Shown: positions 1 to 64,000, counted from the first letter of the stretch. The stretch: DNA of 64,000 nt from Candidatus Heimdallarchaeota archaeon (GCA_030149205.1 JASBSB010000001.1:134357-198356); one strand, 5' to 3'. The notes: generated from the letters alone by a model not told the origin. Program-made: numbers and translations.

Positions 1-114
1 TCAATAGTAGATTCTTATCAACAAAAAGCTGCGAAATTACCACTCCCTAAAATTCTGCTCAAGTTAATCAGTTTACTGATAGAGGGAGTACAAGCTAAGA
101 TAAAGATTCTATAA
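1..114 (+). CDS. 3' end of an ORF entering from upstream of the window (unknown product)
   Basis: Frame 1 is open from base 1 to TAA at 112-114 (...KLPLPKILLKLISLLIEGVQAKIKIL*). Only 37 codons are visible and no motif is recognised. Confidence 0.2.
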   Translation, partial: SIVDSYQQKAAKLPLPKILLKLISLLIEGVQAKIKIL

Positions 115-552
115 ATTATAATTGTAAAATCATATTTGCTCTAATGTCGATTTTTGATTTTAAATTTGTTCATGAAAGGTATTGTCCATTGTAACCAGAA
201 CATCCCAATGAATTTGGGATTAAAATGAAAGAAATAGTTATTGATCGTAAAAAGAGAAGAGAAGAGTTGAAAACCAATATGGGTAGTTATCTAATTTAGT
301 GGTTTAGGTAGTTTACTTTACTAAATTAATACAATATTACAGAAGATTACAAAGATTAGATGTTTTAATTGCAAATATCATAAAAAACATTTCATCTTAG
401 TAAATTTTTTAGTTTGTACTAAAGCAGAGTATTATTTCACAAAAAACAATCTAAGTTTGTTAGAACAGAAGATAAACAACCATTTTAAGGAAAAATATAT
501 GCAAAAAGAAATTTAAGTTCGGGTTAATTCTTTTCAATGACCTAATATAATT

Positions 553-1386
553 TCAAGTGTCAAACTCTAATAAATCTATAAAGTCACACAATTTACAAAA
601 TTGACATACCTTAGATGTGAAATCTTGTTCAGGTAACTTTTTTATATTATTTAATTGTTGTGATTTTTCGTATAAATTAGAAATCTCTTGCAATAATCCC
701 CCAATCGTTTTCTGGTCAATTTTTTGAATTTGATCAAATTTTGGTTTACTATACCAAAGTTCAAGATTTATTTGCTGGTCTGGAAAAGAACTGTATAATA
801 TTTCACCATAAATTTTTATTTGATTCTCATCTTCTAGTTTTGGAGTACCCGTTTTGTATTCAATTATTCGTAATCCACCTGTTTCAGAAAATGCTACCAA
901 GTCAATCTTACCACGTATTTGAAAATTGTGGTTAATTCTATTGATAACAGTAAATTCATCTTGAATTACAAGTGATGTTATCTCATTATTATTAATTGTA
1001 ACCAAACTTTCTGCCATAAGAGCAAGATTATGAAGTTGACTTGTAATTATATCAAAACTATTTGAAAATTCTTGGCGATGGTATTTCCATGGACCTGTAT
1101 TATTCATCCATATTTTTTTTATTGAATCTAATTCAATTTCCATTGATAATAATATTGCATCCTTTATATTCTTACTTTTACGGTGATAAAAAAATTCAAC
1201 ATTACTAAAATTTCTTAGGAATACTCTCTGTAAAATTAAATGTAAAAAATTTCCCGCGTATACAAATTTGTTAGGTGTAAATGGTATTTTTATCTCCTGT
1301 TGAGCATATAATACCTGTAACATTGTTCTTCTTTTACAATTAAATTCATTTACACTTGTAACTCCTAATCTTATTGATTTATTCAT
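553..1386 (-). CDS. Cas4-like PD-(D/E)xK nuclease with predicted 4-Cys (Fe-S) cluster; last gene of the Argonaute operon
   Basis: Motif order matches the Cas4/AddB family. N-terminal Cys (SVNEFNCKRR), GNFLH, GKIDLV...RIIEYKTG (D...ExK core), QIKIY (QxxxY) and C-terminal CQFCKLC. The ATG overlaps the upstream gene's stop by 8 nt (1379-1386). Confidence 0.8.
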   Translation of the reverse strand: MNKSIRLGVTSVNEFNCKRRTMLQVLYAQQEIKIPFTPNKFVYAGNFLHLILQRVFLRNFSNVEFFYHRKSKNIKDAILLSMEIELDSIKKIWMNNTGPWKYHRQEFSNSFDIITSQLHNLALMAESLVTINNNEITSLVIQDEFTVINRINHNFQIRGKIDLVAFSETGGLRIIEYKTGTPKLEDENQIKIYGEILYSSFPDQQINLELWYSKPKFDQIQKIDQKTIGGLLQEISNLYEKSQQLNNIKKLPEQDFTSKVCQFCKLCDFIDLLEFDT

Positions 1387-3148
1387 TTAATGTCCTCCTA
1401 TTTTCCAATAAAAATTCTGAAGAATAGTGCATAGCTAATCCAAGGATAAATGGAAATTTCGGTTTTGATAAACTGTATGGGTTTATGAAGGTTTGATAAA
1501 ATACATCTTGAAGTATTTCTTGGATATCATGCAATCCTTTGATTTTTTCAATAAATAATGGTTTGGGAATACCTTCAAATAAATCATTAGGATATCCATT
1601 TGTCATAATTAATGACTTGTTATCATTAATACTAACTGATAAGCCATCAATTGCTTTAGAAGTATTTTCGATCTGTCCATAAAGGATTGAGTGTGATGAA
1701 TTAACTAAAACTAAACAAAAATTATAATGGGAAATTTTATCAATTAAAGGTAATAACTGTCTGTCTGAAATTTGAATTAAGAAGTGGTCTGAATCACTAA
1801 AATTAATCAATTTTTGTAAGAAATCATTAATTTTAACTTTTTCATCGATATTTTTGTCTCTATCATTATAAAAAATATCATGTGAAATGTTAATATTTCC
1901 CTTATTAGAACTAACACCTGATAATATCATCCATTCTCCTGCATAATATGGTGTTATATGAAGAGCGATTATATTCTGATGATACTTCATTGATACATTT
2001 TGATATAATTTTCGAGTGTATCTAAATCTAATATTCAACCAAATTAGTTTTACAATTTTTCCCCAATCATCTTCTAATATTGTTGAAAATTTAATGATTT
2101 TATTTGGAATTACAATTTTTTCTTTAGTTTTATTGTATACATATCCTGAACCCTTTATTCTATCGTCGATACATATTATAGCTGCATCTGCCTCAAATTT
2201 ATGAAGCTTGGAGACATAATAGCTTTGAATTGTAATATTTAATCCTGTAACTTCTGCAAAATATGAAATAAAATTCTGAATCTTAATGGGGGTATTATCT
2301 GTCACAGATTTATCAATTAAAAATAATATATTGCTAATAAATGGATCAAATGAAATGTTATCCTCTAAAATATCTACTAATGGAGTAGTGTTTAAAGTTT
2401 CAATAGTGTTTGAATTGATTTTTATCGACGGACTATTTATTAAATCCCCTTTCAGATTCTCAATAACAGATAATCTTACATTTCCGATTTGATTTGTATT
2501 TATTACTTTGATTATTTTAAGGAATCTTTGTTCCACTGATTCAAAATTTCGATGTAATTGTAATACTTCTTTTTCTATTACACCAGGTATTAATTTATTA
2601 GATGTTAAGTTAAATGAATTTTCAGATATTTCATGTCTGGGATCATAAAAAACCATAACCTTATCATCTCGCATCTCATGGCATTCAAACCTTTCAGCTT
2701 GAAAAATCGAATACGTGAATGTTTCATTAAACTGTTCAACAGTTTTTTCTACGATAGGATTTATTCTTTGACTAGCTACTCCTTTAGATTTTCCAATAAA
2801 TGACAGTACCTCACTGGGTCTATAATAACCTTTGTTTGAAAATGTAATATATAAGGCTGTCAATACGAATATGTCAAGATTTTGTATTTCTTTCTTTTCA
2901 TTAATCTCTGTAGTACAGATTGAAACAGGGATTGTAGCAATCTCCAAATGTGAAGGTGGTTTTTGTGCGAAAAGGTAATATGAATCCTTTACATATATAA
3001 TTGTAAATGGAACATCTGATAAAAAATCACCATTTTTTAATGCAAAGGTCAGAAAGCTAAATTCATAGTTGTACTGCATGGAAACTTTGTACATTTTTAA
3101 TACAGCTGTATCAATTTGTGCTATCCAACCAAGTATTTTGCATATCAT
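1379..3148 (-). CDS. Second, highly diverged Argonaute-like protein (MID-PIWI-like C-terminal half; N-terminal ~300 aa unassigned)
   Basis: By eye, aa ~325-592 follow the MID->PIWI motif order. YVYNKTKEKIVIPNKII is MID-like; KLIWLNIRFRY sits at the aKlGG helix position; HFLIQISDRQL at the hRDG strand position. GIPKPLFIEKI is GtprP-like and the C-terminal KPKFPFILGLAMHYS sits at the lPxPxxYA position. The ATG at 3148-3146 overlaps the pAgo TGA at 3147-3145 (ATGA). The track's GTG start at 3157 is the alternative. Confidence 0.55.
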   Translation of the reverse strand: MICKILGWIAQIDTAVLKMYKVSMQYNYEFSFLTFALKNGDFLSDVPFTIIYVKDSYYLFAQKPPSHLEIATIPVSICTTEINEKKEIQNLDIFVLTALYITFSNKGYYRPSEVLSFIGKSKGVASQRINPIVEKTVEQFNETFTYSIFQAERFECHEMRDDKVMVFYDPRHEISENSFNLTSNKLIPGVIEKEVLQLHRNFESVEQRFLKIIKVINTNQIGNVRLSVIENLKGDLINSPSIKINSNTIETLNTTPLVDILEDNISFDPFISNILFLIDKSVTDNTPIKIQNFISYFAEVTGLNITIQSYYVSKLHKFEADAAIICIDDRIKGSGYVYNKTKEKIVIPNKIIKFSTILEDDWGKIVKLIWLNIRFRYTRKLYQNVSMKYHQNIIALHITPYYAGEWMILSGVSSNKGNINISHDIFYNDRDKNIDEKVKINDFLQKLINFSDSDHFLIQISDRQLLPLIDKISHYNFCLVLVNSSHSILYGQIENTSKAIDGLSVSINDNKSLIMTNGYPNDLFEGIPKPLFIEKIKGLHDIQEILQDVFYQTFINPYSLSKPKFPFILGLAMHYSSEFLLENRRTLNE

Positions 3149-5346
3149 ATAAACCACGGCTTTTTAAAATGGAAATTCGCCATATCTTTAGGAATTTTGC
3201 CCATACCTCTACTTGATGAATGAATTGGAACTGGGAGCTTAGTTTCAATTCTATCCCATCCAGAATAACAATGGCATAAATCAAAAATCTCATAAAGAAG
3301 TTTTTCAAATCTCTCCTCATCACATTTAATATTTCTTAATACAATTGGATTTTGAGTCCCAACATTTCCTTGTGTTGAAATTAAACCAACTTCAGTCTTA
3401 GATATCCAATAAAAAGTCCCAATATGTGGCCGAAATATTCTATTTTTTTCATTCTTTGAATAAATACGAAGTGGAGACGAAGAAATTACCTCAACAATTG
3501 AATGTTTTAAATTAAGAATATTAAGGCTATGTTCAATATCTTTTAATTCTCTATCATAAAATTTTCCATTCTTTATTAAAACTACTTCATCATTATTTTT
3601 AGTGAGTAACTTAAAAGCACTTTCAAAATTTTGTTGACGATTTTCGACGTTATCAGAAATGTAGTATCCTCCACTAAATCTACCCGAATTATAATATGAA
3701 TTTAGTAACCCCCGATATTTAGTTGCATCTAGTGAGATGTTTTGAGATTGCAAACCAATATATTTTACAAAACCATTTTCATTAACATTCAGTAACCATG
3801 AATGTAGACCTAACTTTGCAATTATACCCAAAAATATATTCCGAAAATACCCATTTTGTCTTGATTCAATTTTATCCTTCAGAACATTAAAATTAATTCC
3901 CTGATGAGGATATTCATTTTTTATTAATTCACCAGATACTAATTCTTTGAATTCACTATCTACACTATCATTATCAGAATGAACCACTATGATACAATTG
4001 TTGTTATTTACAAATTTATCCATATATTCTGATAAGTCTCCCTTTTTTTCGAGAAGTTTTATTTCATCAAACTCAATTTCTGTACTAAGAAATTGTTGAA
4101 GAATGATTATTTCTTTTGTTTCTTTTAGAAATGGCTTTTTTATTAATCCTAATTGATATTCATTATACTCTCGATATAATAAAATCGATATTTTTAACTT
4201 TTCGGGACCCTTATCAAATATCCCATATTTTTGAATTTCTAATGCTGGGTAATCAGTCCTATGTGAATTACCAATAATGTAATTATTCAAATCTAATAGT
4301 CCAGAGTTACATGAGTTCCAAGATTGAAAGTTTCTAATTGGATTTAGAGTTATTGAACCCACGGTTAAATTACCTATAAAACGCATATAATTCTGTGATC
4401 GTTTAAATCTAATCGGAGGGTCAGGCCTAATTTGTTTCATCAGGGCACCTCTATCATGATAATCCAAATGTGAAAATGTTGGTAATTCTCGAATTCTTTC
4501 TAAAGGGTATGAATAATACTCATCATTATCATTTTTATAGAATGATAACGCAATAGGTGGTTCATCTTGTATAAATTCACCAAGCACGGGTGCTCTAGGA
4601 CAAATGAATTTTTGTTTGTGAAACTCAATTATATCTAAATTATCAATTATTACCTCTGAAGGTTTCTTATTTACAATTTTTTTCAATTTCACAGTCTTCC
4701 CAGTTCCAGCATATCTACAGTTTGAGAAAGGATCCTGTTTTTCTGGACATTGAATAATTGGACAAGTATCTACATAATAATTTTTCGGATTTATTTCTAT
4801 ACTAGAATATGAAAGTTTCTCTCTCAATGATACGGATGAATGAAATTTATATTTGAGATCAACTATTACTCCAACTTCACCATTTTTAAGCAAAATTGGA
4901 GCATATTGAAATCCTGGGAAAACATCAATTTTTCCAAAACCCTCGATGGTCTCAGGGCTAGAAACCTCAAATATTGAATTGTAAGTTTCTTGTATCTTCC
5001 ATAATTTATTACTATGTCGTAAATTGACAGCAATAGCATCTCCAATAATTCTTTTCAATAGATCTAAATCATCATCATTTTGGGCTGAAACTAATCTACT
5101 AGTAGGAGGAAATAAATTTACTGCCAAATCTTTTTCGAAATCATCTTCAAGTAATTCGGTTGAAATTATCTTATCTCCAAATTGAATTATAATTTTACGT
5201 CGATTATCTGGAACTTTCCTAAGATTAAGTAATACATCACCAAGTTTTCGAAAGTTTATTTCTTCTTTTTTCCTATATTCAAAGACTGTAACTTTATCTT
5301 TGAATGGTGTTTTTTCAAATTTTAAAATATTAGTTATTATTTCCAT
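3145..5346 (-). CDS. Long prokaryotic Argonaute (N-PAZ-MID-PIWI), predicted catalytically inactive
   Basis: N-terminal TNILKF; PAZ-like block DVFPGFQYAPILLKNGEVGVIVDLKYKF. The MID/PIWI junction reads YPHQGINFNVLKD...FRNIFLGIIAKLGLHSWLL. The PIWI C-terminus reads GTQNPIVL...ETKLPVPIHSS. The hRDG strand reads IKNG (nt 3565-3576), so the third catalytic Asp is Asn. Confidence 0.85.
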   Translation of the reverse strand: MEIITNILKFEKTPFKDKVTVFEYRKKEEINFRKLGDVLLNLRKVPDNRRKIIIQFGDKIISTELLEDDFEKDLAVNLFPPTSRLVSAQNDDDLDLLKRIIGDAIAVNLRHSNKLWKIQETYNSIFEVSSPETIEGFGKIDVFPGFQYAPILLKNGEVGVIVDLKYKFHSSVSLREKLSYSSIEINPKNYYVDTCPIIQCPEKQDPFSNCRYAGTGKTVKLKKIVNKKPSEVIIDNLDIIEFHKQKFICPRAPVLGEFIQDEPPIALSFYKNDNDEYYSYPLERIRELPTFSHLDYHDRGALMKQIRPDPPIRFKRSQNYMRFIGNLTVGSITLNPIRNFQSWNSCNSGLLDLNNYIIGNSHRTDYPALEIQKYGIFDKGPEKLKISILLYREYNEYQLGLIKKPFLKETKEIIILQQFLSTEIEFDEIKLLEKKGDLSEYMDKFVNNNNCIIVVHSDNDSVDSEFKELVSGELIKNEYPHQGINFNVLKDKIESRQNGYFRNIFLGIIAKLGLHSWLLNVNENGFVKYIGLQSQNISLDATKYRGLLNSYYNSGRFSGGYYISDNVENRQQNFESAFKLLTKNNDEVVLIKNGKFYDRELKDIEHSLNILNLKHSIVEVISSSPLRIYSKNEKNRIFRPHIGTFYWISKTEVGLISTQGNVGTQNPIVLRNIKCDEERFEKLLYEIFDLCHCYSGWDRIETKLPVPIHSSSRGMGKIPKDMANFHFKKPWFI

Positions 5347-5348
5347 AT

Positions 5349-6035
5349 TTATCTCTCTTTGTTTTTAAGTAACTCAAATGAACTTATCACCGCAAGGTCT
5401 GTGTTAACCGTTTTTGTTAGTATTTTCTTACAAGCTGAATGCATTATGAAAAATCCTGTACCTAACGCAGTTTTCATTAACTCGTTTTTTGCGGATTGCA
5501 ATAAAATATCATTAACTATTATTTCAGGATGAACTGATGTTGAAAAATATACTTGGATTGTAAATGAACTCGTATCATCCAAAAACAAAAAAGAATTTAT
5601 TCCATCTTTTTTCCAATTACACTTCAGTGAAAAAAGATCTTCAATTCTTGAATTAAACCCGTCTAATCTATTAAATTCTTCGCTAATTTCTTTGATAGGT
5701 AGTATAATTGAAGATTTTAACAAATAATTCCCCATAACTCTCAGGTGCCAATTAGAATTAAATTTATCTACGTCTAATACTTGTATAGTTTGATTGGATT
5801 GATACAATCCTGTATCTTCTTCATAAGAAAGCAGATTATCTTTAGTTAATTGGCTAAGTATCATTTCAACTTCTACATTTGGTATATGATCAAAATATAG
5901 ATTACTTCTCCCAGAACTCATCCAAATATGTTTCACTATATTTGATTTTTTTGCACTACCATAATCTCGCAGGAAATCAAGAATTAATTTTTTAATTGCT
6001 TTCTCCATTGAATCTTTAGGTTTCATATCAATCAC
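5349..6035 (-). CDS. Winged-helix (wHTH)-like N-terminal domain protein with uncharacterised C-terminal domain; Argonaute-operon gene 2
   Basis: The N-terminal ~75 aa (EKAIKKLILDFLRDYGSAKKSNIVKHI...ILSQLTKDNLLSYEEDTGLY) has a wHTH-like helix/wing pattern. The GTG at 6035 overlaps the upstream TGA (GTGA); an ATG at 6026 is the alternative. Only 2 nt separate its stop from the pAgo ATG. Confidence 0.5.
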   Translation of the reverse strand: MIDMKPKDSMEKAIKKLILDFLRDYGSAKKSNIVKHIWMSSGRSNLYFDHIPNVEVEMILSQLTKDNLLSYEEDTGLYQSNQTIQVLDVDKFNSNWHLRVMGNYLLKSSIILPIKEISEEFNRLDGFNSRIEDLFSLKCNWKKDGINSFLFLDDTSSFTIQVYFSTSVHPEIIVNDILLQSAKNELMKTALGTGFFIMHSACKKILTKTVNTDLAVISSFELLKNKER

Positions 6036-7072
6036 CTGACTATCTCCTTAATCTTTGACTTTAGTTCTTCAGAATTATCTACAATTACAACATTCTTAAA
6101 ATTGTAGCGTATTTCATCATAATATTGATTAGAATTGTTTAAAATAATAAAATGGGTAATATCAATAAACGAAGTAAAAGCAAAATTAATTTCATCTACC
6201 TCTTCAGAAGGTAAATGCATATCTACAATCCATAATCCAATTTTTAGGTTATTCAATTCAATGTAAATGGGAATTGTTATACTCTCATTCTGACTATTTG
6301 TAATCTTTATTTCCTTACGGATAAAAATTGGATTGAATTCTTGAATTACATTGAGGAAGCTTTGACCAATTTTCTCCTGTAAATACTTGAAATCATCACT
6401 GAAAGCCGGAATTCCAGATATTTCCTCAAAATCTTTTGCTGTGTATTTTGTTCTCATTTGAGAGCTTGATTTTGTAATTATTTGTTCTATTATATCTTGA
6501 AATATTTGTTTAGGATTACGAATTAGAATATTATATTTTGATAGCTCTTCAAGACATTTACTCTTAATATTATCGAATGGACTTGATGGATGATTGGGGG
6601 CAAAATAATTCCAAACAAATTCTATTTTTTTGAATACTTCAATTTTTTTCTGATCTGTGAATTTTCCTTTGAAAAGAGAATTTATTCTACCTTTATCAGC
6701 ATTTGAAATTTCTAAATTGTTCTGAAGGTTTTGTTGAATTTGCAGTAGTTCAGTAATTTCTGCATTCCAACCCGATTGAGTTGTAAATCGAAATTTAATT
6801 TCTTTTCCAGATAAATTTTTTTCATCTTCCTGTATGAACTTTGTTAAAATTGGTATCAAACTTGATTTATTCCAGACACTATGTTCTTTTTTCTTTACCT
6901 GTTCAAATATAAAGTACCCAGTATATTCTATGTTAATATCTTCTAATTCATCATCCTTTGATTCAAATTCAATTGATAAAATCTGATCTCCTTTAATGAA
7001 TTCAATGACTCTTAGTACTCCAACCATATTTTGGTAATTAATACCATAGTTTGTATCAATTCCACTTGGCAA
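6032..7072 (-). CDS. DUF4297 / Cap4-type dsDNA-endonuclease-like (PD-(D/E)xK fold) N-terminal domain protein; first gene of the Argonaute operon
   Basis: The N-terminus (YGINYQNMVGVLRVIEF...IEFESKDDELEDINIEY...FEQVKKK) matches the G-x-x-YQ ... E..D.D ... QxK pattern of DUF4297 nuclease domains. The C-terminal ~220 aa are unassigned. A TTG start at 7072 is needed to include the YQ motif. Confidence 0.6.
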   Translation of the reverse strand: MPSGIDTNYGINYQNMVGVLRVIEFIKGDQILSIEFESKDDELEDINIEYTGYFIFEQVKKKEHSVWNKSSLIPILTKFIQEDEKNLSGKEIKFRFTTQSGWNAEITELLQIQQNLQNNLEISNADKGRINSLFKGKFTDQKKIEVFKKIEFVWNYFAPNHPSSPFDNIKSKCLEELSKYNILIRNPKQIFQDIIEQIITKSSSQMRTKYTAKDFEEISGIPAFSDDFKYLQEKIGQSFLNVIQEFNPIFIRKEIKITNSQNESITIPIYIELNNLKIGLWIVDMHLPSEEVDEINFAFTSFIDITHFIILNNSNQYYDEIRYNFKNVVIVDNSEELKSKIKEIVR

Positions 7073-7091
7073 TATTTTAAATCTAGTTTTC

Positions 7092-7102
7092 TTTATAATA
7101 AT
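7092..7102 (-). promoter_or_regulatory. TATA-box-like element upstream of the Argonaute operon
   Basis: The minus strand reads attattataaa about 25 nt upstream of the TTG start at 7072, a spacing compatible with a leaderless or short-leader archaeal transcript. TATA-like strings are common in this AT-rich DNA. Confidence 0.3.
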
Positions 7103-7454
7103 TCAGAGATATTGTAATAATCAAAATGAAAGTTTTAAAAATTTAAATATACAATATGTGATATCAAAAAAATTTTATTGCAAAGACTTAAAATAAATGA
7201 GAACTCGAAGCTGGATAAAGACCTATAACCGTGATTTCCTTGAAATATCTCGGATATAATCAAGAAAATAAATTAGTAAATCTAAATCTTGATTGAAATA
7301 TTCTTCGTCTACTAATTATTCTTATTATATTGTTATCTTATAAGAGTTGGAAGTACACAGATATTCGACTTGCTAAGTCAGTATACAATATATATTCAAC
7401 CAGTATCTTTCAACTATGACTACCAATTCCAAAAAAAAAATGAAATTGAATGAA

Positions 7455-8597
7455 TTAATCCAGGTGTTTATTGTTTTTCTTAATATGCTGCAATGTATCT
7501 TCATTGTGAGCTGCCAAATACTCAAAAGAATTGTCATACATAGTTTGATTTAATCTATGAATAATGTCACTTTTTACGAAAATACTATATTCAACAGGAG
7601 TTTTGTTATCAATTGTAGATAAATTATTTGTTATGTATTTCATAAAATTTTCCAGATTTAACAATCCTATCGCAATTGTGGGATTAATTGGTATGTAATA
7701 TTCTAACATAACTGATACTCCATTTACTATTAACTCTGCTATAATCAATGGATTGTCTGAAGTAATTAATTCTACAGGGTGGTCTTGAGGATTTAGTCCA
7801 GATAGATTAATTATGATGATCGGCCTGAGTTCAGTATGTTTTAGTGGTTTATCAACTGTTTCATCAGGCAATTTTTGTAAAACTTCTCTGATTTTATTTT
7901 CAATTTCGATTTGACTATCTTTATGATCTAAAGATTTCTTTATTCCGATACTAATATTTTTACTTATTAAGGATATCATACCTTGTAAGTCGTTTTTTAA
8001 AAAATACCCCTGTGCTTTTTGTAAAAACACCTCGTCATATTTAATATTACTTTGATATAGAATCTCCTGTGTTTCAGTGCTAATAAAACTAAAATCCAAT
8101 ATCTTACTAAATTTCATGTAATTTCTAAATGAAGGTGTTCTAAACGTTAGATGATTAATAAAATCACATAAAATTTCGAAATTTGATTGCAAATGCATAG
8201 CATCTATGAAAGTCTCCGCAAATTTTTTTATATCTAATGATTTTTTGAATATGTTATCTCTATTACTAGGGTTGTAAATTTTTATTTTCTCAGTTTGAAA
8301 ATTTAATTTTTCTAATCCAGTAAAGAACTTAGCGACTTTATCCTCAGCTTCACTCATCAAATCGTCAATCAGTTCCTCTAAAAACCTTGGAGAATAAAAA
8401 CTTTGATTAATCTTTTTTTTGTCAATATCCCCAGTCTTTTTGTTCAACCTAAATACTCTTTTCTTTTTGTTATCTTTTTCAAAATCCTCCTCAATAACAA
8501 AATTTCGTAGAAACCACTGAGGAATATAATGTTGTTTTCTGCCTGACATGAACATAACTGTGGAATAATTGTATATTATAGTATTTGAACGAGACAT
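7455..8597 (-). CDS. DUF4238-like protein (function unknown)
   Basis: The N-terminal motif GRKQHYIPQWFLRNF matches the H-Y-[IV]-P-Q-x-[FY]-L-x-x-F signature of DUF4238. The rest is unassigned. It lies in the same low-GC block as the Argonaute operon. Confidence 0.55.
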   Translation of the reverse strand: MSRSNTIIYNYSTVMFMSGRKQHYIPQWFLRNFVIEEDFEKDNKKKRVFRLNKKTGDIDKKKINQSFYSPRFLEELIDDLMSEAEDKVAKFFTGLEKLNFQTEKIKIYNPSNRDNIFKKSLDIKKFAETFIDAMHLQSNFEILCDFINHLTFRTPSFRNYMKFSKILDFSFISTETQEILYQSNIKYDEVFLQKAQGYFLKNDLQGMISLISKNISIGIKKSLDHKDSQIEIENKIREVLQKLPDETVDKPLKHTELRPIIIINLSGLNPQDHPVELITSDNPLIIAELIVNGVSVMLEYYIPINPTIAIGLLNLENFMKYITNNLSTIDNKTPVEYSIFVKSDIIHRLNQTMYDNSFEYLAAHNEDTLQHIKKNNKHLD

Positions 8598-8704
8598 TAC
8601 AAAATTAATCGATAATTAGATCATTTTCTGAAATTTCAAAGGTTTGTGTTAACAAAAATAATATTAGTCAATATTTCAGACTTGTGTTTCAATCAACAAC
8701 TAAT

Positions 8705-9319
8705 CTACGAATCGAAACCTTCAATTTCTTCAAGATCGTCATAGGTCTGTCTAACTGCTTGATGAACTTGATCTTCGGTCTTTGCACCAGTACACACAAG
8801 ATTCCCACTTTGGAAGAGCAACAATACTGTTTTAGGTTCTTTTAATCGATAGATAAGTCCAGGAAACTGCTCAGGTTCATACATTGATTGTTCTAACCAC
8901 ATGTTTGCGGCTTCAAGGTTAATCACCCTATTGTTGAAATTCCCAGAGGCAACAATATTTTGGACGATAATTTCAGGAGTCTCTTCAATGGTTGTGCCCA
9001 CAGTTCTTAGGATATCAATCATCTGATAAACACCTTGATGAACCATTTCCTCAGATTTTGCACCCGTTATAACCAGTTTACCACTTGAAAACACAAGGGA
9101 TGAGATTTTAGGCTTTTTAGTTTTTAAGATCAGACCAGGAAACTGTTCTGGGTTATAGCTTACTTCTAATTCATCATCATCAATTAACTGTTGAAAGATA
9201 CTGACTAAATCTATGTTTGTGAACAGGTTAACTGAAGCTACACAGTTTTGGATTATAATTTTGAAATCTAATCCGTCGTCTTTGTTTTTTTCTCTTGAGG
9301 GAAGTGTTTCTTGACTCAT
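8705..9319 (-). CDS. tbp: TATA-box binding protein
   Basis: Two direct repeats are present, each with QNxVAS...EQFPGLI...SGKLVITGAK / SGNLVCTGAK. Confidence 0.95.
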   Translation of the reverse strand: MSQETLPSREKNKDDGLDFKIIIQNCVASVNLFTNIDLVSIFQQLIDDDELEVSYNPEQFPGLILKTKKPKISSLVFSSGKLVITGAKSEEMVHQGVYQMIDILRTVGTTIEETPEIIVQNIVASGNFNNRVINLEAANMWLEQSMYEPEQFPGLIYRLKEPKTVLLLFQSGNLVCTGAKTEDQVHQAVRQTYDDLEEIEGFDS

Positions 9320-9461
9320 CTTGATTCAAAATGATTAAGAACTTGCTCTTTTATAAGGCTTAGTAAAAATATCTTTTATTTTGTATGTTCTGATACATAA
9401 AAACACACGCTTGAATTGTAAAGAGAATGCATTTTTCTACAATTTTCCTACGACACAGTAA

Positions 9462-10007
9462 CTATTTTCTTACAAGCTTTTGGTTATCTTGAATCTTCCC
9501 AGCAATTTGCTCAATTTTTAATTCTAGAACCTTGATGATTTTTGTATTGTCGAACTCTTCAAGTGTTTCCCCACATTTTGGACAGATGAAATCATACTCC
9601 ATAGCTTCGTTGAACGTCAAACGGTAACACTCCTTCTTTCCACATGTGAAAAACATGTTTTCCTTCTCATGTTGAAGCCGTTCCATAAGTTTCCATTGTA
9701 TTGCCCTCTGTTTCTTAATAACGACAGAGTTTATGTTTTCAGTCAGTAGTTTCCAAAAATAAATATACCAACCTGTGTTTTTATCCCTGATCCTACGAAA
9801 ACTTGCTATCTCCAAATCATGGAGTTTATACAAGGATTTTCTAACCTCATCAAGTTTAATGTTTAGCTCATCTGCTATAAATTCATCTGTAACCTCTTCA
9901 TCTTGATCAATAAGTAGAATGGTTACTTTTCGGATCTCAGGTCCGGCTACATCCTCCACCATATCTAATAATGTTTGTCTTTCTTGCTCGTTAACTACCA
10001 AATCCAC
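9462..10007 (-). CDS. tfe: Transcription factor E (TFE alpha, TFIIE-alpha homologue)
   Basis: N-terminal wHTH (DEFIADELNIKLDEVRKSLYKLHD) followed by a Zn-ribbon (FFTCGKKEC...FICPKCGETL). Confidence 0.85.
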   Translation of the reverse strand: MDLVVNEQERQTLLDMVEDVAGPEIRKVTILLIDQDEEVTDEFIADELNIKLDEVRKSLYKLHDLEIASFRRIRDKNTGWYIYFWKLLTENINSVVIKKQRAIQWKLMERLQHEKENMFFTCGKKECYRLTFNEAMEYDFICPKCGETLEEFDNTKIIKVLELKIEQIAGKIQDNQKLVRK

Positions 10008-10175
10008 AACCTTTATCGAATTGATTACCAGAGGAATACCCTAATTAACATTAATTTTTGGTATTAAAACCCATATGATGTTGTACTAATCAATTTCACA
10101 TAAATTAGCATCAAGCTGAATAATAACTTTTTATTTGCAAAACTAACAAAGGTTTTAGATTTACCTAACAAATAT

Positions 10176-10766
10176 GTGGTTGTGTTAAAGCTAATTCATC
10201 TAAACATTATGAGGATGGTGGATGGAAAACCTCAGGGAGTGCCAATTTGGAAGACCCCACTAGATCCTGAAAAACACCCAAATTTGTCAGATGATACAAT
10301 CACAACGACGCTAGTGAGTCTTTCAAAGCGATTTGTACGACCATCCTTAGAGGGAAAAAATTATAATTTTGTAAAACTTTCCTTTAATAACATCATTTTT
10401 GATATTTACCTCCCTTCCAGTGGAAAAGATCAGTTTGCTTTAATCACTATCTTTCAATCTGAACCCCCAATAAAGACAACAGAAAAAGAAAGAGATGAAT
10501 TGATTTTAACCTTAGTCTCAAAGATTAAGAAGATAGAAGAATTTAGAAAGGTATTCACAAAAAGTTTTGGGGATCAAAGTTTAGAGATTGAATTCAATTC
10601 CACTCTGTACAAAAAAATCCTCAGTGTGGTCTTTGATGAGGTCGAAAAGTTCAACAACATTAAACTGCATAAACTGAAAGAGGAGATTGAAAAGAAAAGG
10701 AGGATACAGGAGGAGAAAATAGAAAAATTCATGTCAGATACTGAAAATACAGAGGATAATGAATAA
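10176..10766 (+). CDS. Hypothetical protein; possible Roadblock/longin-like alpha/beta domain plus C-terminal charged coiled coil
   Basis: The ORF starts with GTG; ATG codons at M12/M14 are alternatives. A beta-beta-alpha-beta-beta-beta-alpha-like hydrophobic pattern is seen by eye only. The C-terminus is EEIEKKRRIQEEKIEK. Confidence 0.4.
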   Translation: MVVLKLIHLNIMRMVDGKPQGVPIWKTPLDPEKHPNLSDDTITTTLVSLSKRFVRPSLEGKNYNFVKLSFNNIIFDIYLPSSGKDQFALITIFQSEPPIKTTEKERDELILTLVSKIKKIEEFRKVFTKSFGDQSLEIEFNSTLYKKILSVVFDEVEKFNNIKLHKLKEEIEKKRRIQEEKIEKFMSDTENTEDNE

Positions 10767-10829
10767 ATCATCACTCTAAATTACCTCTGTGATGAAAATA
10801 TTTAATATAAAAGTGAATTATGTTAAGTA

Positions 10830-11672
10830 TTGAATCTTTTTGATAAGTATTCCCCGAATAAAAAGAATACAGAAATCAGGGTGGGGACTGTAGAAGAGAA
10901 TTTTGTTTTAGAAGAACAACCATCAAGGGAAATTGTTTTTAAGTCAGCCAGTGAAATATTAGAGGACTCAAAGCTCTCCCAACCAATAAGTACTGGGGTC
11001 TCGGGTCTAAATCAGCTTTTGCATGGAGGAATAGAGCGAGGTAGTATTACGGAAGTGTTTGGCTCTCCCACGGTTGGCAAATCTCAATTTGCCTTTCAAA
11101 TAACCAAGAATAATTCTCTTGGGAAGTATAAACCAATTAGCATTTTTATTGATACCGAAGGTACTTTTAAACCTCAAAGAATTGTACAAATGTTGAAACA
11201 TCAAAAAGCAAGTCAATCATCAACCAAAGATGTTCTTGACAATATTATGGTGTTCTCAGTGAGTAATTATAAGGATCAAATAAAGGTGGTTCAAAGCATT
11301 TTTCAAATGCCAAATCTGGAGAATGTTGGGCTAATTGTAATTGATTCTCTAACAAACCTTTTCAGAGCTCAATTGAGCTCAAAAAGCCAAATTATCAGAA
11401 GACAGCAACTTATTAATCTTCAACTGTCGAAATTAAGAAGTTTAGCACAGAGAAACAAAATCGCAGTTCTTGTTACAAATCAGGTCGGAATGGATTACCA
11501 AGCCCAACGAAATATTCCAGTTGGTGGAAATATTCTTGCACATGGGGTGACCCATAGGCTACAGATAGAGAGAATGGACGGTGGAAATAAACGATTGTTT
11601 AAAATCGTTAGCTCTCCTTTCATACCAGAAGGTGTAATTGAATTACGTTTGACTGAACAAGGGTTAATCTGA
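10830..11672 (+). CDS. RadA/Rad51-family recombinase paralogue lacking the N-terminal HhH domain (RadB-like)
   Basis: Walker A GSPTVGKSQ, IDTEGTFKPQRIVQ, Walker B LIVIDSLTNLFRA, RRQQL...VLVTNQV and VGGNILAHGVTHRL. TTG start. Confidence 0.8.
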   Translation: MNLFDKYSPNKKNTEIRVGTVEENFVLEEQPSREIVFKSASEILEDSKLSQPISTGVSGLNQLLHGGIERGSITEVFGSPTVGKSQFAFQITKNNSLGKYKPISIFIDTEGTFKPQRIVQMLKHQKASQSSTKDVLDNIMVFSVSNYKDQIKVVQSIFQMPNLENVGLIVIDSLTNLFRAQLSSKSQIIRRQQLINLQLSKLRSLAQRNKIAVLVTNQVGMDYQAQRNIPVGGNILAHGVTHRLQIERMDGGNKRLFKIVSSPFIPEGVIELRLTEQGLI

Positions 11673-12020
11673 ATTCTCAAAGAAATCTGTAATACTCTTT
11701 TGACTCATCCTTTTTTCTAATCTCTCTAGCTTCATATCTTTGAATTCTTGAAGCAGTGAATTTGCTTCGTCATCCAATGCAAAAGCGAGAACAATTTGAT
11801 CTTTTAGAACATCCACATCAGCTAACTCCTCAATAAAATTGGTAAAAAAAAGATTGTTGTTATCGGTCAACTTGATAACACCATCCTTTGTGGCTTGTCT
11901 TAGTTTGATTGTTGCTTGAAGGAGTTCACCTAACTCTTCAATTAGTTTGTCTATCTGATGATTGATCCCAAATGTCTTGACTGCTTTTAAACTGATCTCC
12001 CGTCGTTTGTTAGCATCCAT
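11664..12020 (-). CDS. MazG-like nucleotide pyrophosphohydrolase domain protein
   Basis: Paired EExxE/D helices are present: IEELGELLQA and IEELADVDVL. Confidence 0.65.
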   Translation of the reverse strand: MDANKRREISLKAVKTFGINHQIDKLIEELGELLQATIKLRQATKDGVIKLTDNNNLFFTNFIEELADVDVLKDQIVLAFALDDEANSLLQEFKDMKLERLEKRMSQKSITDFFENSD

Positions 12021-12143
12021 CTCTATTCATTTAGTATTTCCTTAAATTATAAAGTCATCTATGAAATCAAGGGAACATTAATTCAGTAACCAATTAATTT
12101 CTAATAATTTTATTCATCGTTTTATGAAACCCTTTATACTGAT

Positions 12144-12548
12144 TTATTCATATCTCCAGCTAATTACAGTATTATTAACAGGAACCATCTGGTCGACTGC
12201 TAAAGAACCCCGAACATTATTGAGGTAGTATATCCAAAATGCATTTGATCGATTAATGTTGTTAAACACTCCATCAATGGAGGTAACAAAATATCCCAAA
12301 TTAGGATACACCTTAATTGTAACGTTGTTATCAAGGATTGTCAAGTTATAAACTGTAAGTGTGGTGTTGAGGAGATAAGATTTTTGGATATCCGGTTTTA
12401 TTCCATTAAACTTGACTTCTAGAGAATAATAGATTAAACCAACCGAAACACCTCCTTTTTGTTGATTTTGATTAAAGAGATACAAAGCGCCAGTTAATGT
12501 AATTAAGATAAATAACAACATCACCAAGAACAATAGAGTTCTTTTCAT
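12144..12548 (-). CDS. DUF4430-domain membrane-anchored protein (commonly next to ECF/cobalamin-type transporters)
   Basis: N-terminal TM helix. The C-terminus (GYFVTSIDGV...NAFWIYYLNNVRGSLAVDQ...VISWRYE) matches the DUF4430 pattern. ATGA overlap with the upstream gene. Confidence 0.6.
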   Translation of the reverse strand: MKRTLLFLVMLLFILITLTGALYLFNQNQQKGGVSVGLIYYSLEVKFNGIKPDIQKSYLLNTTLTVYNLTILDNNVTIKVYPNLGYFVTSIDGVFNNINRSNAFWIYYLNNVRGSLAVDQMVPVNNTVISWRYE

Positions 12549-63012: not shown

Positions 63013-64000
63013 ATGGTCAGAGACTTAATCGAAAGAGTGAAAAATTTTTATTCCTCTGAGCACCCATTCTCCGAATTAACACTTTCTGAGTTTGATATTC
63101 AATTAAAGGCAGCCTTTGAAACCAGACAATACTTCTCTTTAGGAAAGAATTCTGTTGTGGTTCCGGGATGGATACTTGAGCAACTTGCCCCTGGTGGAAA
63201 GGCAAAGCATGGTTTAGCTGCACTGCCAATCATTTCAAACAATGAGTATAGAGATTACTATGCGGTGGGGTCTCCTGATTCTAGTATTGAACCTGTAATA
63301 GACCATAGAGGAGGTATAATCCCAAAACCTGACTCCTACACTCTCGTTGTAGGGACAATTGTAAATGATAAACCAATTTACTCCTCTGAAGCAGGTAAAA
63401 TTGATATTCAGCTCCATGATGACGGATTCCCTATAGTCATGGTGAATTGGAAAGTTGACGGAGATGAATGCTCGTATGAATGTGTTGCAGACAGAGATGA
63501 AGAAGGAGTAGAGACTCTCGCTATCAATGTTGTTAGAGGTTTTGCTAATCACCAACTACTTCTGACACTCACACCACTTGATCAGGTGAAACTTACAAGG
63601 GTTGAGACCCTTGAATGGATGGATAAGTCCCAGACATTAATTGTCAATGGGAAAGCACAAATCAAAGTTTCAGAAAAGCCCCTCAACGCTGTTGCATTAC
63701 CTATTGAAAGAGGTCATGCTGGAAGGTGGGTCAATAAGCTTGAACCATCACACGTAGCGACTTGTAAATCTCAAGCTGCTTCGTGGGCCGTAAGGTTTCC
63801 TGTAAGAACCAGAGTTTCAATTCTTGTTAACTTGACTGAGGGACAAGAATTTGAGATGGTTGACTCTGATGATGTAGAGGATAAATGGATAGAGGAGATT
63901 GAAAACTTTCCAATAATCCACACTGGAGACCCTTTAGTTGACACTTTGTTTAAGAATAGTGCAATAACACTGAGATTACTCCTCGATAAAATCAATGATG
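63013..64000 (+). CDS. 5' part of an unlisted ORF running off the 3' end of the window (unknown product)
   Basis: Hand translation from the ATG at 63013 (MVRDLIERVKNFYSSEHPFSELTL...) is stop-free for 329 codons to the window edge. The three minus-strand track ORFs in this interval are short and low-complexity, consistent with antisense shadows. Confidence 0.6.
   Translation, partial: MVRDLIERVKNFYSSEHPFSELTLSEFDIQLKAAFETRQYFSLGKNSVVVPGWILEQLAPGGKAKHGLAALPIISNNEYRDYYAVGSPDSSIEPVIDHRGGIIPKPDSYTLVVGTIVNDKPIYSSEAGKIDIQLHDDGFPIVMVNWKVDGDECSYECVADRDEEGVETLAINVVRGFANHQLLLTLTPLDQVKLTRVETLEWMDKSQTLIVNGKAQIKVSEKPLNAVALPIERGHAGRWVNKLEPSHVATCKSQAASWAVRFPVRTRVSILVNLTEGQEFEMVDSDDVEDKWIEEIENFPIIHTGDPLVDTLFKNSAITLRLLLDKIND

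What the first reader, a model, noticed from the sequence alone, without database searches (positions are those of the whole stretch)
1..8650. Compositionally distinct (more AT-rich) block abutting the tbp-tfe housekeeping genes
By eye, 60-nt rows inside the Ago operon often contain only about 12-16 G+C, whereas rows in tbp, the thermosome gene and purA typically contain 22-26. This is my rough visual estimate, not a computed value. The change occurs around 8.6-8.7 kb, just before tbp. This is the pattern expected for a horizontally acquired defence island. No integrase, tRNA or direct repeats marking its ends were seen in the window, and the left end may lie outside it.
Basis: partly seen in the sequence, partly recalled or inferred. 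Interest (0 to 1): 0.45.

Follow-up and report, generated by a model that had tools for sequence, protein, structure and literature searches.

The report
AT-rich defence island beside tbp
A 9-kb AT-rich stretch next to the TATA-binding-protein gene of a Heimdall (Asgard) archaeon is a horizontally acquired defence island; it carries a DUF4238 anti-phage gene and a rare five-gene cassette built around a catalytically dead Argonaute, an ordinary kind of event with unusual cargo.

Summary
Window 1-8650 has 27.7% GC against 35.9% for the rest, and the change point falls at ~8,700, the tbp stop codon. The source contig places the other edge only ~250-390 bp beyond the window's left end, at the start of the next host gene, so the block is ~9 kb. 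Its six genes are the six lowest in GC and GC3 of 66 genes. The composition-normalised tetranucleotide signature also deviates.

Two Heimdallarchaeota relatives keep the same gene order, p196-tfe-tbp-p307-p320-p97-LRR-amidohydrolase, but tbp lies 90-200 bp from p307 and no block is present.

The cargo is a DUF4238 gene, a published single-gene anti-phage system, plus a cassette of five genes:
- a Cap4/HamA-like nuclease
- a ~230-aa protein of unknown function
- a long pAgo that lacks catalytic Asp residues
- a second PIWI-domain paralogue
- a Cas4-family nuclease

The cassette's four-gene core recurs in seven unrelated neighbourhoods. It is always more AT-rich than its flanks. One copy sits beside an IS1634 transposase fragment, and one has a caspase in place of the nuclease.

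No integrase, tRNA, att site or target-site duplication was found. The "horizontally acquired defence island" reading is supported. The island is ordinary, but the cassette architecture appears undescribed.

The parts
1..552 (.). AT-rich non-coding tail of the island. It is the in-window part of a 940-bp gene-free gap between the Cas4-like gene and host gene p307, and the gap continues ~390 bp beyond window position 1.
   Evidence: No ORF of 60 aa or more. GC is 0.20-0.34 per 100 nt. There is no Rfam hit and no tandem repeat. Folding is no better than shuffles, z = 0.5 and 0.0. There is no similarity to the gaps after the cassette in L007 or L009.
553..1386 (-). Cas4-family PD-(D/E)xK nuclease, 277 aa, last gene of the cassette.
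   Evidence: Pfam PDDEXK_1 E = 5e-11. PADLOC Cas4c 2e-7 and Aga_Cas4-like_Nuc 2e-4. C17, D162, E176-x-K178, Q189xxxY193 and C261xxC264xxC267 are invariant in five homologues.
1379..3157 (-). Second Argonaute-family protein, 589-592 aa. It has a C-terminal PIWI domain and an uncharacterised N-terminal ~325 aa.
   Evidence: A six-sequence profile compared with the pAgo-clade profile gives hhalign probability 94.5%, E = 8e-8, with residues 327-588 aligned to pAgo 463-724. PDB Argonaute 9iad_A scores 2e-6 and TtAgo 4e-4. No Pfam hit. AlphaFold was uninformative, pLDDT 32.6.
3145..5346 (-). Long prokaryotic Argonaute, 733 aa, predicted catalytically inactive.
   Evidence: PADLOC PprPIWI 1e-39 and pAgo 9e-29. 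The clade profile hits CpAgo 9jh8 at 2.5e-33 and CbAgo 6qzk at 9e-28. CpAgo 'GLDV' aligns to GLQS, 'HRDG' to IKNG and 'YAD' to HSS, with no Asp at these positions anywhere in the clade. Only 53 cluster representatives among 1.84 billion proteins.
5349..6035 (-). Conserved ~228-aa cassette protein of unknown function.
   Evidence: No significant family hit. A protein of 225-237 aa occupies this position in all seven cassette copies. Sequence homology is detected in L007 and L009. L010-L012 gave no tblastn hit at E <= 1e-3, and the direct L011 comparison scored E = 0.47.
6032..7072 (-). Cap4/HamA/LmuA-like PD-(D/E)xK nuclease, 346 aa, first gene of the cassette and the presumed effector.
   Evidence: Pfam Cap4_nuclease E = 1e-9, 39.4 bits against a cut-off of 26.2. 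PADLOC LmuA 3e-4 and HamA 4e-4. E37, D45 and E57-Q-V-K60 are invariant in four homologues. In L011 a Peptidase_C14 caspase occupies this position.
7093..7114 (-). 22-nt element 20-40 nt upstream of the cassette's first start codon, 95% identical in L007. Presumed promoter or 5' leader.
   Evidence: It is the only significant non-coding match between cassette copies (blastn-short E = 1e-5). Its function is inferred.
7455..8597 (-). DUF4238 protein, 380 aa. A separate single-gene defence candidate, not part of the cassette in other genomes.
   Evidence: Pfam DUF4238 E = 6e-15, 55.8 bits against a cut-off of 27. GC 0.278 and GC3 0.249. Absent from L002 and L003 and from all other cassette loci. 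Anti-T7 activity of the family is reported in 10.1101/2021.01.21.427644.
8598..8704 (.). Right junction of the island, between the DUF4238 start and the tbp stop.
   Evidence: Change point at 8,680-8,730 and 8,707. Alignment with L002 and L003 loses similarity immediately after the tbp stop codon.
8705..9319 (-). tbp, a host gene that flanks the island and is not part of it.
   Evidence: Pfam TBP 6e-54. It is 92-93% identical in L002 and L003. GC 0.369.

Best explanation
The block is a ~9-kb defence island that entered a Heimdallarchaeial (Asgard) chromosome by horizontal transfer. It now fills what is otherwise a 90-200-bp spacer between tbp and the RING-finger-like gene p307. It holds two independent immune modules.

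(i) A DUF4238 single-gene system.

(ii) A five-gene operon. My proposed mechanism for it is inferred, not shown:
- The catalytically dead long pAgo (733 aa) and a second PIWI-domain paralogue (~590 aa) act as the guide-loaded sensor of invader nucleic acid.
- The Cas4-family nuclease generates or trims guides, as ACE1 does for cyanobacterial pAgos.
- The Cap4/HamA-like PD-(D/E)xK nuclease is the effector released on target recognition. In one relative a caspase-like protease takes its place.
- The ~230-aa protein is an adaptor or regulator.

The strong AT bias reflects two things: origin in a ~26-30% GC gene pool with limited amelioration, and the general tendency of this cassette to stay more AT-rich than any host.

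The vehicle of integration left no trace. There is no integrase, tRNA, att site or target-site duplication. IS-mediated transfer, or recombination after DNA uptake, is the most likely route.
For: Shown by computation:
- The GC step is 27.7% against 35.9%, with boundaries exactly at the tbp stop and the p307 start.
- The six block genes are the six lowest in GC and GC3 of 66.
- The tetranucleotide signature is deviant, and synonymous codon use differs at p = 3e-26.
- The site is empty in L002 and L003, which have identical flanking order on both sides.
- The cassette is present with the same gene order in L007, L009, L010, L011, L012 and a JGI contig, each with different neighbours.
- The closest copy, L007, is only 64% identical in the pAgo and 69% identical in DNA. 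It sits beside an IS1634 transposase fragment.
- The pAgo clade is extremely sparse: two close proteins in 5.8 billion and 53 representatives in 1.84 billion.
- The cassette is more AT-rich than its flanks in all four loci with usable flanks.
- Identities of the cargo.
- The same gene neighbourhood occurs on a 995-kb NCBI contig and a 191-kb Logan contig.

From the literature:
- pAgos spread mainly by HGT, and inactive ones pair with Cas4 or other PD-(D/E)xK nucleases (PMC6299218).
- Asgard Agos are polyphyletic and exchanged by HGT (PMC11217426).
- ACE1 Cas4-family enzymes bind the MID-PIWI lobe and process guides (PMC12094033).
- DUF4238 protects against T7.
Against: - No mobility gene, tRNA, att site, terminal inverted repeat or target-site duplication marks the ends.
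- L002 and L003 are sisters, so one ancestral deletion could also explain the empty site.
- The host has no close sequenced relative: p307 finds only itself, and the metagenome scan added nothing. The event can therefore not be dated.
- Codon usage differs from the host in degree rather than in kind.
- The conserved LRR gene nearby has 30% GC, so AT-richness is not exclusive to foreign DNA here.
- All functional roles in the cassette are inferred from homology and gene order. The structure prediction for the PIWI paralogue failed.
- PADLOC models do not recognise the DUF4238 protein.
Confidence: 0.85

Rival explanations
1. The block is ancestral to this Heimdallarchaeial group and was deleted once in the common ancestor of L002 and L003. 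On this view its AT-richness is an intrinsic feature of rapidly evolving, weakly expressed defence genes and not a sign of foreign origin.
For: L002 and L003 are each other's closest relatives (TBP 98%, p307 54%), and the host branches outside them, so one deletion suffices. The cassette is more AT-rich than its flanks in every host, including a 44-49% GC host. Island codon usage is an exaggeration of the host's own bias.
Against: The boundaries coincide to within a few tens of bases with the two host genes that are adjacent in the relatives. The composition-normalised tetranucleotide signature is also deviant. The cassette sits in seven unrelated contexts, once next to an IS1634 transposase. 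It is extremely patchy, with only one homologue above 40% identity in 5.8 billion proteins. DUF4238 never accompanies the cassette elsewhere.
Confidence: 0.08
2. The block is the remnant of an integrated mobile element (provirus, integrative plasmid or composite transposon) that carried the defence genes and has since lost its integrase or transposase and its ends. The 940-bp gene-free stretch would be the decayed remainder.
For: An unusually long 940-bp non-coding AT-rich stretch lies at one end. L009 also has a 725-bp AT-rich gap after the cassette. L007 has an IS1634 transposase fragment directly upstream of the cassette.
Against: There are no integrase or transposase remnants, no ORF of 60 aa or more in the gap, no TIR, TSD or att repeats, and no tRNA. 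No relatives were found in 2.9 million viral contigs. Only the Cas4-like nuclease hits PHROG families (exonuclease and CRISPR/Cas-associated); the other five genes do not, and there are no structural or replication genes. The gaps of different copies share no sequence.
Confidence: 0.1
3. The block is an assembly or binning artefact: a fragment of a lower-GC organism from the same metagenome joined into a Heimdallarchaeial contig.
For: The source is a metagenome or enrichment assembly (Logan SRR23576960). The composition changes abruptly at both ends.
Against: The same gene neighbourhood is reported on two assemblies, a 191-kb Logan contig and a 995-kb NCBI contig. Both junctions fall precisely in one intergenic spacer whose flanks are contiguous in relatives. 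That pattern is what an insertion predicts, and a chimera would need two coincident misjoins. Host sequence continues for 48 kb or more on one side and far beyond the window on the other.
Confidence: 0.03

Closest known systems
Prokaryotic defence islands / genomic islands acquired by HGT
   Same: The block shows a compositional anomaly and is absent from the syntenic site in relatives. Two unrelated immune modules are clustered in it. The cargo is found in varied contexts elsewhere, next to an IS element in L007 and an R-M methylase-like gene in L011.
   Different: There is no integrase, tRNA target, direct repeats or other mobility hallmark. It is inserted between core transcription genes (tfe-tbp) and a conserved lineage-specific gene, not in a recognised hotspot. 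The tbp flanks in L004 and L005 carry only ordinary genes.
Long-B pAgo-nuclease systems (BPAN) and other inactive-pAgo plus effector systems such as SPARDA and SPARTA
   Same: A catalytically dead Argonaute is co-encoded with a PD-(D/E)xK nuclease that presumably acts as the effector after guide-directed target recognition. The effector position is exchangeable: nuclease in most copies, caspase in L011.
   Different: This is a five-gene operon, not two genes. It contains a second PIWI-domain protein and a Cas4-family nuclease. The nearest solved structures to the pAgo are long-A enzymes (CpAgo, CbAgo, AaAgo), not long-B. The effector is Cap4/HamA-like rather than the BPAN nuclease. The phylogenetic clade was not determined.
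APACE1/APACE2 systems (long-A pAgo plus Argonaute-associated Cas4-family enzyme; PMC12094033)
   Same: A Cas4-family protein of ~277 aa carries the D-ExK motif, one N-terminal Cys and three C-terminal Cys ('iron staple'). It is encoded next to a long pAgo. A plausible shared role is guide processing in a complex with the MID-PIWI lobe.
   Different: APACE pAgos are active slicers, whereas here the tetrad is lost. ACE1 and ACE2 are reported from bacteria, and this one is archaeal. Three additional conserved genes are present. Membership of the ACE1 or ACE2 clade was not tested.
Rst_DUF4238 single-gene anti-phage system (Rousset et al., P2/P4 hotspots)
   Same: The protein has a DUF4238 domain above the Pfam gathering score, is a stand-alone gene and lies inside a defence-rich locus.
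   Different: It is an archaeal homologue. The best domain stretch covers only the first ~97 of 281 profile positions. No PADLOC model hits it. Activity is untested.
Asgard Argonautes HrAgo1 and HrAgo2 (PMC11217426)
   Same: It is an Asgard-encoded Argonaute in an operon-like cluster outside CRISPR/CBASS islands. It is part of the polyphyletic, HGT-prone asAgo diversity.
   Different: HrAgo1 is an active, eukaryote-like RNA-guided slicer flanked by RNase III and a helicase. HrAgo2 is short and linked to transposition genes. The present pAgo is long, inactive and nuclease-associated, with no evident link to eukaryotic AGO or PIWI.

Membership tests
Horizontally acquired genomic/defence island | Base composition and oligonucleotide signature deviate from the host background | tested here: met
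   27.7% against 35.9% GC. The six block genes are the six lowest in GC and GC3 of 66. Tetranucleotide delta* is 0.23-0.25 against at most 0.195 elsewhere.
Horizontally acquired genomic/defence island | Absent from the orthologous site in related genomes that have conserved flanks | tested here: met
   L002 and L003 have tfe-tbp-p307-p320-p97-LRR-amidohydrolase with a 90-200 bp tbp-p307 spacer. Caveat: the two relatives are sisters.
Horizontally acquired genomic/defence island | Cargo occurs in unrelated genomic contexts or lineages (patchy distribution) | tested here: met
   Seven contexts with different neighbours. 53 representatives among 1.84 billion proteins.
Horizontally acquired genomic/defence island | Two or more defence systems are clustered | tested here: met
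   DUF4238 (Pfam 6e-15) plus the pAgo cassette (PADLOC 1e-39; PDB profile 2.5e-33). Defence activity itself was not testable.
Horizontally acquired genomic/defence island | Mobility hallmarks: integrase or transposase, tRNA or att site, flanking direct repeats | tested here: not met
   No tRNA. No recombinase domain in any ORF. No boundary repeats beyond chance. This feature is common but not obligatory for defence islands.
Argonaute (long pAgo) | Homologous MID-PIWI module, with a full-length protein of ~700-770 aa aligning to long pAgos | tested here: met
   Clade profile positions 221-719 align to CpAgo 213-732 at E = 2.5e-33. CbAgo, AaAgo and KmAgo are also hit.
Argonaute (long pAgo) | Catalytic DEDX tetrad (required for slicer activity, not for family membership) | tested here: not met
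   Asp positions 1, 3 and 4 of CpAgo align to Q/S, N (variable in the clade) and S. No Asp occurs there in any of 14 clade members.
Long-B pAgo-nuclease (BPAN) | Phylogenetic placement of the pAgo in the long-B clade | not tested
   No reference pAgo tree was built. The nearest solved structures are long-A enzymes, which argues against membership but does not decide it.
Long-B pAgo-nuclease (BPAN) | Inactive pAgo co-encoded with a nuclease effector | tested here: met
   Inactive tetrad. Cap4/HamA-like nuclease with an intact D...E-x-x-K motif in the same operon.
APACE (pAgo plus ACE Cas4-family enzyme) | Cas4-family hallmarks: D-ExK, QxxxY, 1+3 Cys Fe-S 'iron staple' | tested here: met
   C17, D162, E176-x-K178, Q189/Y193 and C261/C264/C267 are invariant in five homologues. 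Pfam PDDEXK_1 5e-11.
APACE (pAgo plus ACE Cas4-family enzyme) | The associated pAgo is a catalytically active long-A slicer | tested here: not met
   Tetrad lost.
CBASS Cap4 effector | Nuclease domain fused to a SAVED/cyclic-oligonucleotide sensor and linked to a CD-NTase | tested here: not met
   Only the Cap4_nuclease domain (residues 3-202) is detected. There is no SAVED hit and no CD-NTase in the block. It shares the nuclease fold only.
Rst_DUF4238 defence system | DUF4238 domain above the family threshold in a stand-alone gene | tested here: met
   55.8 bits against a cut-off of 27. It is monocistronic, with 382-bp and 107-bp gaps on its two sides.
Rst_DUF4238 defence system | Confers phage resistance | not testable with these tools
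   Experimental. Shown only for an E. coli P2-hotspot homologue.
Integrated provirus / ICE | Structural, replication or conjugation genes plus a site-specific recombinase | tested here: not met
   No such Pfam, NCBIfam or PHROG hits. No viral-contig relatives.

The most novel reading that the evidence does not exclude
The main cargo may be an undescribed type of Argonaute immune system. It has a conserved four-gene core: a ~230-aa protein, an inactive long pAgo, a second divergent PIWI-domain protein and a Cas4-family nuclease. A swappable effector gene precedes the core, either a Cap4/HamA-like nuclease or a caspase-like protease. In this reading two Argonaute-family proteins work as a heteromeric sensor. 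The system circulates by HGT among Asgard and other uncultured prokaryotes.
Probability: 0.4. Interest if true: 0.65.

Novelty: new variant of a known kind. Interest (0 to 1): 0.42.

Why it matters
As a genomic event this is textbook: an AT-rich defence island dropped into a conserved housekeeping neighbourhood. Its value is as a clean, well-bounded example of recent gene flow into Heimdallarchaeia, the archaeal lineage closest to eukaryotes. For these organisms, separating vertically inherited from horizontally acquired 'eukaryote-like' genes, Argonautes included, is essential to arguments about the origin of RNAi and innate immunity. This Argonaute is clearly an import and should not be read as ancestral Asgard heritage.

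The cargo is the more interesting part. It is a rare pAgo clade whose members always travel with a second PIWI-domain paralogue, a Cas4-family nuclease and an exchangeable effector. I found no description of this architecture in the searchable literature. It could broaden the known repertoire of inactive-Argonaute abortive-infection or interference systems.

Tried and rejected
- Boundary repeats, att sites and target-site duplications: generic and junction-targeted searches gave nothing beyond chance.
- tRNA and ncRNA: ARAGORN found none in 64 kb. Rfam found nothing at gathering threshold on the window, and only two sub-threshold chance hits in the island.
- The 940-bp gene-free gap: no ORF of 60 aa or more, no tandem array, no excess RNA structure, and no similarity to the gaps in other cassette copies. 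I could not show it to be a decayed gene or an RNA locus.
- Closer relatives of the host: p307 retrieves only itself from 5.8 billion proteins. The tbp scan of JGI metagenomes returned only a contig already held. The insertion could therefore be neither dated nor polarised by an outgroup.
- tbp flank as an integration hotspot: L004 and L005 have different but ordinary genes there, such as DNA-alkylation repair, a phosphodiesterase, GluRS and EF-2. The hotspot idea was rejected. L004 is rearranged and says nothing about this junction.
- Viral carriage: no pAgo-clade relative in IMG/VR.
- AlphaFold of the PIWI paralogue with the only two admissible sequences: pLDDT 32.6, discarded, and no fold search was run. 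The three-sequence profile gave only 36% hhalign probability. This was superseded by the six-sequence profile at 94.5%.
- My per-gene codon log-likelihood score proved misleading. Island genes score better than host genes because they overuse the host's preferred A/T-ending codons. I used the chi-square test and GC3 instead.
- Literature searches for 'PprPIWI' and for pAgo with Cap4 and Cas4 returned nothing. The meaning of the PADLOC model name remains unknown to me.


Full report
**1. The observation**

The window's first 8,650 bases have 27.65% G+C and the remaining 55 kb has 35.94%.
- Per 60-nt row this is 16.6 ± 3.1 G+C against 21.6 ± 3.9.
- No 8,650-nt window elsewhere falls below 34.7% GC.
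- A single-change-point likelihood fit peaks at 8,680-8,730, 118.6 nats above the null.
- The sliding profile shows the same step.
- The six genes in the block have GC 0.269-0.290 and GC3 0.176-0.249. Each of the other 60 genes I called in 73 kb has GC of at least 0.304 and GC3 of at least 0.251.
- By my arithmetic, the chance that the six lowest of 66 genes form one run is about 7e-7.
- Synonymous codon usage differs at p = 3e-26. It differs as an intensified version of the host's own A/T-ending preference (AAT, TTA, GTA and ATA up; AAC, ATC, ACC and GTG down). Amino-acid usage shifts to I, N, K and F at the expense of A, G, V and L.
- The tetranucleotide signature normalised for base composition is also an outlier over the cassette: delta* is 0.23-0.25 against 0.13-0.195, and correlation with the background is 0.67-0.73 against 0.77-0.91.

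**2. The true extent**

An exact-protein look-up recovered the source contig, Logan SRR23576960_5003 (191 kb). The same proteins are also on a 995-kb NCBI contig.
- Locus L001 is the reverse complement of the window and runs 9.4 kb past its left end. The conversion is window position = 11,387 - L001 position.
- Low GC spans L001 ~2,700-11,700.
- A two-change-point fit gives 2,680 and 11,640-11,760, with 27.5% GC inside and 34.1% outside.
- These coincide with the tbp stop codon (L001 2,682, window 8,705) and the start of the next host gene, p307 (L001 11,776, window -389).
- The island is therefore ~9.0 kb, and all but ~0.3 kb of it is inside the window.
- Window 1-552 is part of a 940-bp gene-free AT-rich stretch.

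**3. Synteny**

A tbp-anchored scan of GTDB species representatives found five loci, all labelled Heimdallarchaeota or uncultured archaeon.
- L002 and L003 (TBP 92-93% identical) carry p196-tfe-tbp-p307-p320-p97-LRR(-)-amidohydrolase. This is exactly the order in L001, except that tbp and p307 are 200 and 90 bp apart and none of the six block genes is present.
- Nucleotide alignment of the tbp 3' ends loses similarity right after the stop codon.
- L002 and L003 are sisters, and the host branches outside them. L004 is more distant and rearranged (p320-p307-tbp), so it does not inform this junction.
- L004 and L005 have ordinary genes next to tbp, so there is no evidence for a tbp-linked hotspot.
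- No closer relative exists in the databases: p307 finds only itself, and the metagenome scan returned only the L005 contig.

**4. The cargo**

All six genes are on the minus strand.

*DUF4238 protein (7455-8597).* It scores Pfam 6e-15. This family was shown to give strong resistance to T7 when cloned from a P2 prophage hotspot (bioRxiv 10.1101/2021.01.21.427644). It is listed among DefenseFinder systems.

*The tightly packed operon (6032-7072 down to 553-1386).* It has five genes.
- (a) A 346-aa Cap4/HamA/LmuA-like PD-(D/E)xK nuclease. Pfam Cap4_nuclease scores 1e-9, above the gathering score. E37, D45 and E57-Q-V-K60 are invariant.
- (b) A ~228-aa protein with no family hit.
- (c) A 733-aa long pAgo. 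PADLOC PprPIWI scores 1e-39, and the clade profile hits CpAgo at 2.5e-33 and CbAgo at 9e-28.
- (d) A 589-592-aa protein, described below.
- (e) A 277-aa Cas4-family nuclease with every family hallmark conserved: C17, D162, E176xK178, Q189xxxY193 and C261xxC264xxC267.

*The pAgo is catalytically dead.* The positions that align to CpAgo's catalytic GLDV, HRDG and YAD are GLQS, IKNG and HSS. No member of the 14-sequence clade alignment has Asp at these positions.

*The 592-aa protein is a second PIWI-domain protein.* It has no Pfam hit, and its early signals were weak. A six-sequence profile then aligned residues 327-588 to positions 463-724 of the pAgo-clade profile with hhalign probability 94.5%, E = 8e-8. 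The same profile hits solved Argonautes: 9iad_A at 2e-6 and TtAgo at 4e-4. AlphaFold with the only two admissible sequences failed, pLDDT 32.6.

**5. The cassette elsewhere**

The pAgo is very rare. It has one homologue above 40% identity among 5.8 billion proteins (P0002, 64%) and 53 cluster representatives at E <= 1e-3 among 1.84 billion. Context look-ups for six relatives show the same gene order each time, in different neighbourhoods:
- L007: an IS1634 transposase fragment (NCBIfam 1.2e-25) on one side and a DUF4145 gene on the other.
- L009: NosD on one side and ferredoxin and MMPL genes on the other.
- L010 and a JGI contig: NurA/HerA/Mre11/Rad50 genes, on opposite sides in the two cases.
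- L011: a restriction-methylase-like fragment.

The ~230-aa / pAgo / PIWI-paralogue / Cas4-like core is present in all seven contexts. The first gene is the Cap4-like nuclease in five. In L011 a Peptidase_C14 caspase takes its place. Exchange of one gene within a conserved frame is typical of effector modules in defence systems.

DUF4238 accompanies the cassette only in this genome. DNA homology between L001 and L007 (69% over 6.5 kb) starts 79 bp upstream of the first cassette gene and excludes DUF4238. The island therefore holds two separate systems.

The only conserved non-coding element is a 22-nt stretch 20-40 nt upstream of the first start codon. I take it to be a promoter or 5' leader.

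**6. What the AT-richness means**

The cassette has 28.1% GC here, 25.8% in L007 and 26.4% in L009. It has 40.9% in L010, 36.0% in L011 and 33.7% in L012.
- In each of the four loci with usable flanks it is 2.5-8 points below its neighbours.
- The bias is therefore partly a standing property of this mobile cassette, as is usual for horizontally circulating genes. It is partly ameliorated toward each host.
- The closest relatives of the present copy are the ~26% GC versions. This fits import from a ~26-30% GC pool into a ~36% GC genome with little amelioration.
- GC alone cannot date the event. The conserved LRR gene nearby has 30.4% GC, which shows that moderate AT-richness also occurs in vertically inherited genes here.

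**7. How it got there**

I found no tRNA and no integrase or transposase domain. There were no TIR, TSD or att repeats beyond chance, no viral-contig relatives, and no coding remnant, repeat array or stable structure in the 940-bp gap. The vehicle is unknown. The IS1634 fragment beside the L007 copy hints at IS-assisted movement in the gene pool.

**8. How it most likely works (inferred)**

By analogy with inactive-pAgo systems and with APACE1 (PMC6299218; PMC12094033), I propose the following:
- The dead pAgo, possibly together with the PIWI paralogue, binds small guides and senses invader nucleic acid.
- The Cas4-family nuclease produces or trims guides.
- The Cap4/HamA-like nuclease is the effector. 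The caspase in L011 would play the same role.

Only the homologies, motif conservation and gene order are shown. The interactions, the guide type and the outcome (interference or abortive infection) are inferred.

**9. Verdict**

As a genomic island it is an ordinary member of a well-known class, with atypically clean boundaries and no mobility marks. Its main cargo looks like an undescribed variant of Argonaute-based immunity. Literature searches found no description of this architecture. The searchable library is incomplete, and PADLOC already holds a model (PprPIWI) that recognises the pAgo. I score interest at 0.42.

Noticed in passing
L011:144-1322 (NCBI GCA_048885365.1 contig JBHLPY010000398.1): In this copy of the cassette a caspase-like Peptidase_C14 protein (NCBIfam caspase_w_EACC1, 7e-9) occupies the first-gene position in place of the Cap4/HamA-like nuclease. 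The other four genes are retained. This is an effector swap inside a pAgo system.
   Followed up: partly
L010:263-5885 and JGI 3300042731 contig (genes at 7361-12367; no DNA held): In two independent contigs the cassette lies directly beside a NurA/HerA/Mre11/Rad50 DNA-end-resection cluster, upstream in one and downstream in the other. This could be coincidence, related hosts, or a functional link to guide generation from DNA ends.
   Followed up: no
window 4600-4765 (pAgo residues ~195-249): A Cys cluster (C195-P-x2-4-C200 ... C210 ... C249) is invariant in all 14 members of the pAgo clade. It lies in the N-terminal half, where canonical pAgos have the L1/PAZ region. It may be a zinc-binding insert.
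   Followed up: no
window 1-552 plus L001:10835-11775; L009:10107-10831: Long gene-free AT-rich stretches (940 bp here, 725 bp in L009, ~340 bp in the JGI contig) follow the Cas4-like gene in several copies. They share no sequence, no Rfam hit and no excess structure. Their origin is unexplained.
   Followed up: yes
L001:14106-16034 (outside the window, ~3-4.6 kb left of position 1): A 642-aa leucine-rich-repeat protein has only 30.4% GC yet is syntenically conserved in L002 and L003. Moderately low GC in this genome is therefore not by itself a mark of foreign DNA.
   Followed up: partly
window 1-64000: No tRNA gene (ARAGORN) and no Rfam family at gathering threshold were found anywhere in 64 kb of otherwise gene-dense Asgard chromosome.
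   Followed up: no
window 58844-60520 and 63235-63555: There is a local GC maximum of 0.415-0.42 over a 558-aa ORF with no Pfam hit. A 106-aa ORF has an anomalous GC3 of 0.56 with GC1 of 0.29. That ORF is probably not a real gene in that frame, or it overlaps something on the other strand.
   Followed up: no
L001:11776-12699 (p307), just left of the window: The host gene that borders the island encodes a fast-evolving protein with a C-terminal RING/zinc-ribbon-like Cys motif (weak Prok-RING_1 hit, 3e-4, below cut-off). It lies adjacent to tbp in L002, L003 and L004.
   Followed up: partly
L005:6198-7757: A DUF5677 protein sits in a low-GC stretch (~0.27-0.29) about 5 kb from tbp in a more distant relative. 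It may be another small variable or defence-like region.
   Followed up: no
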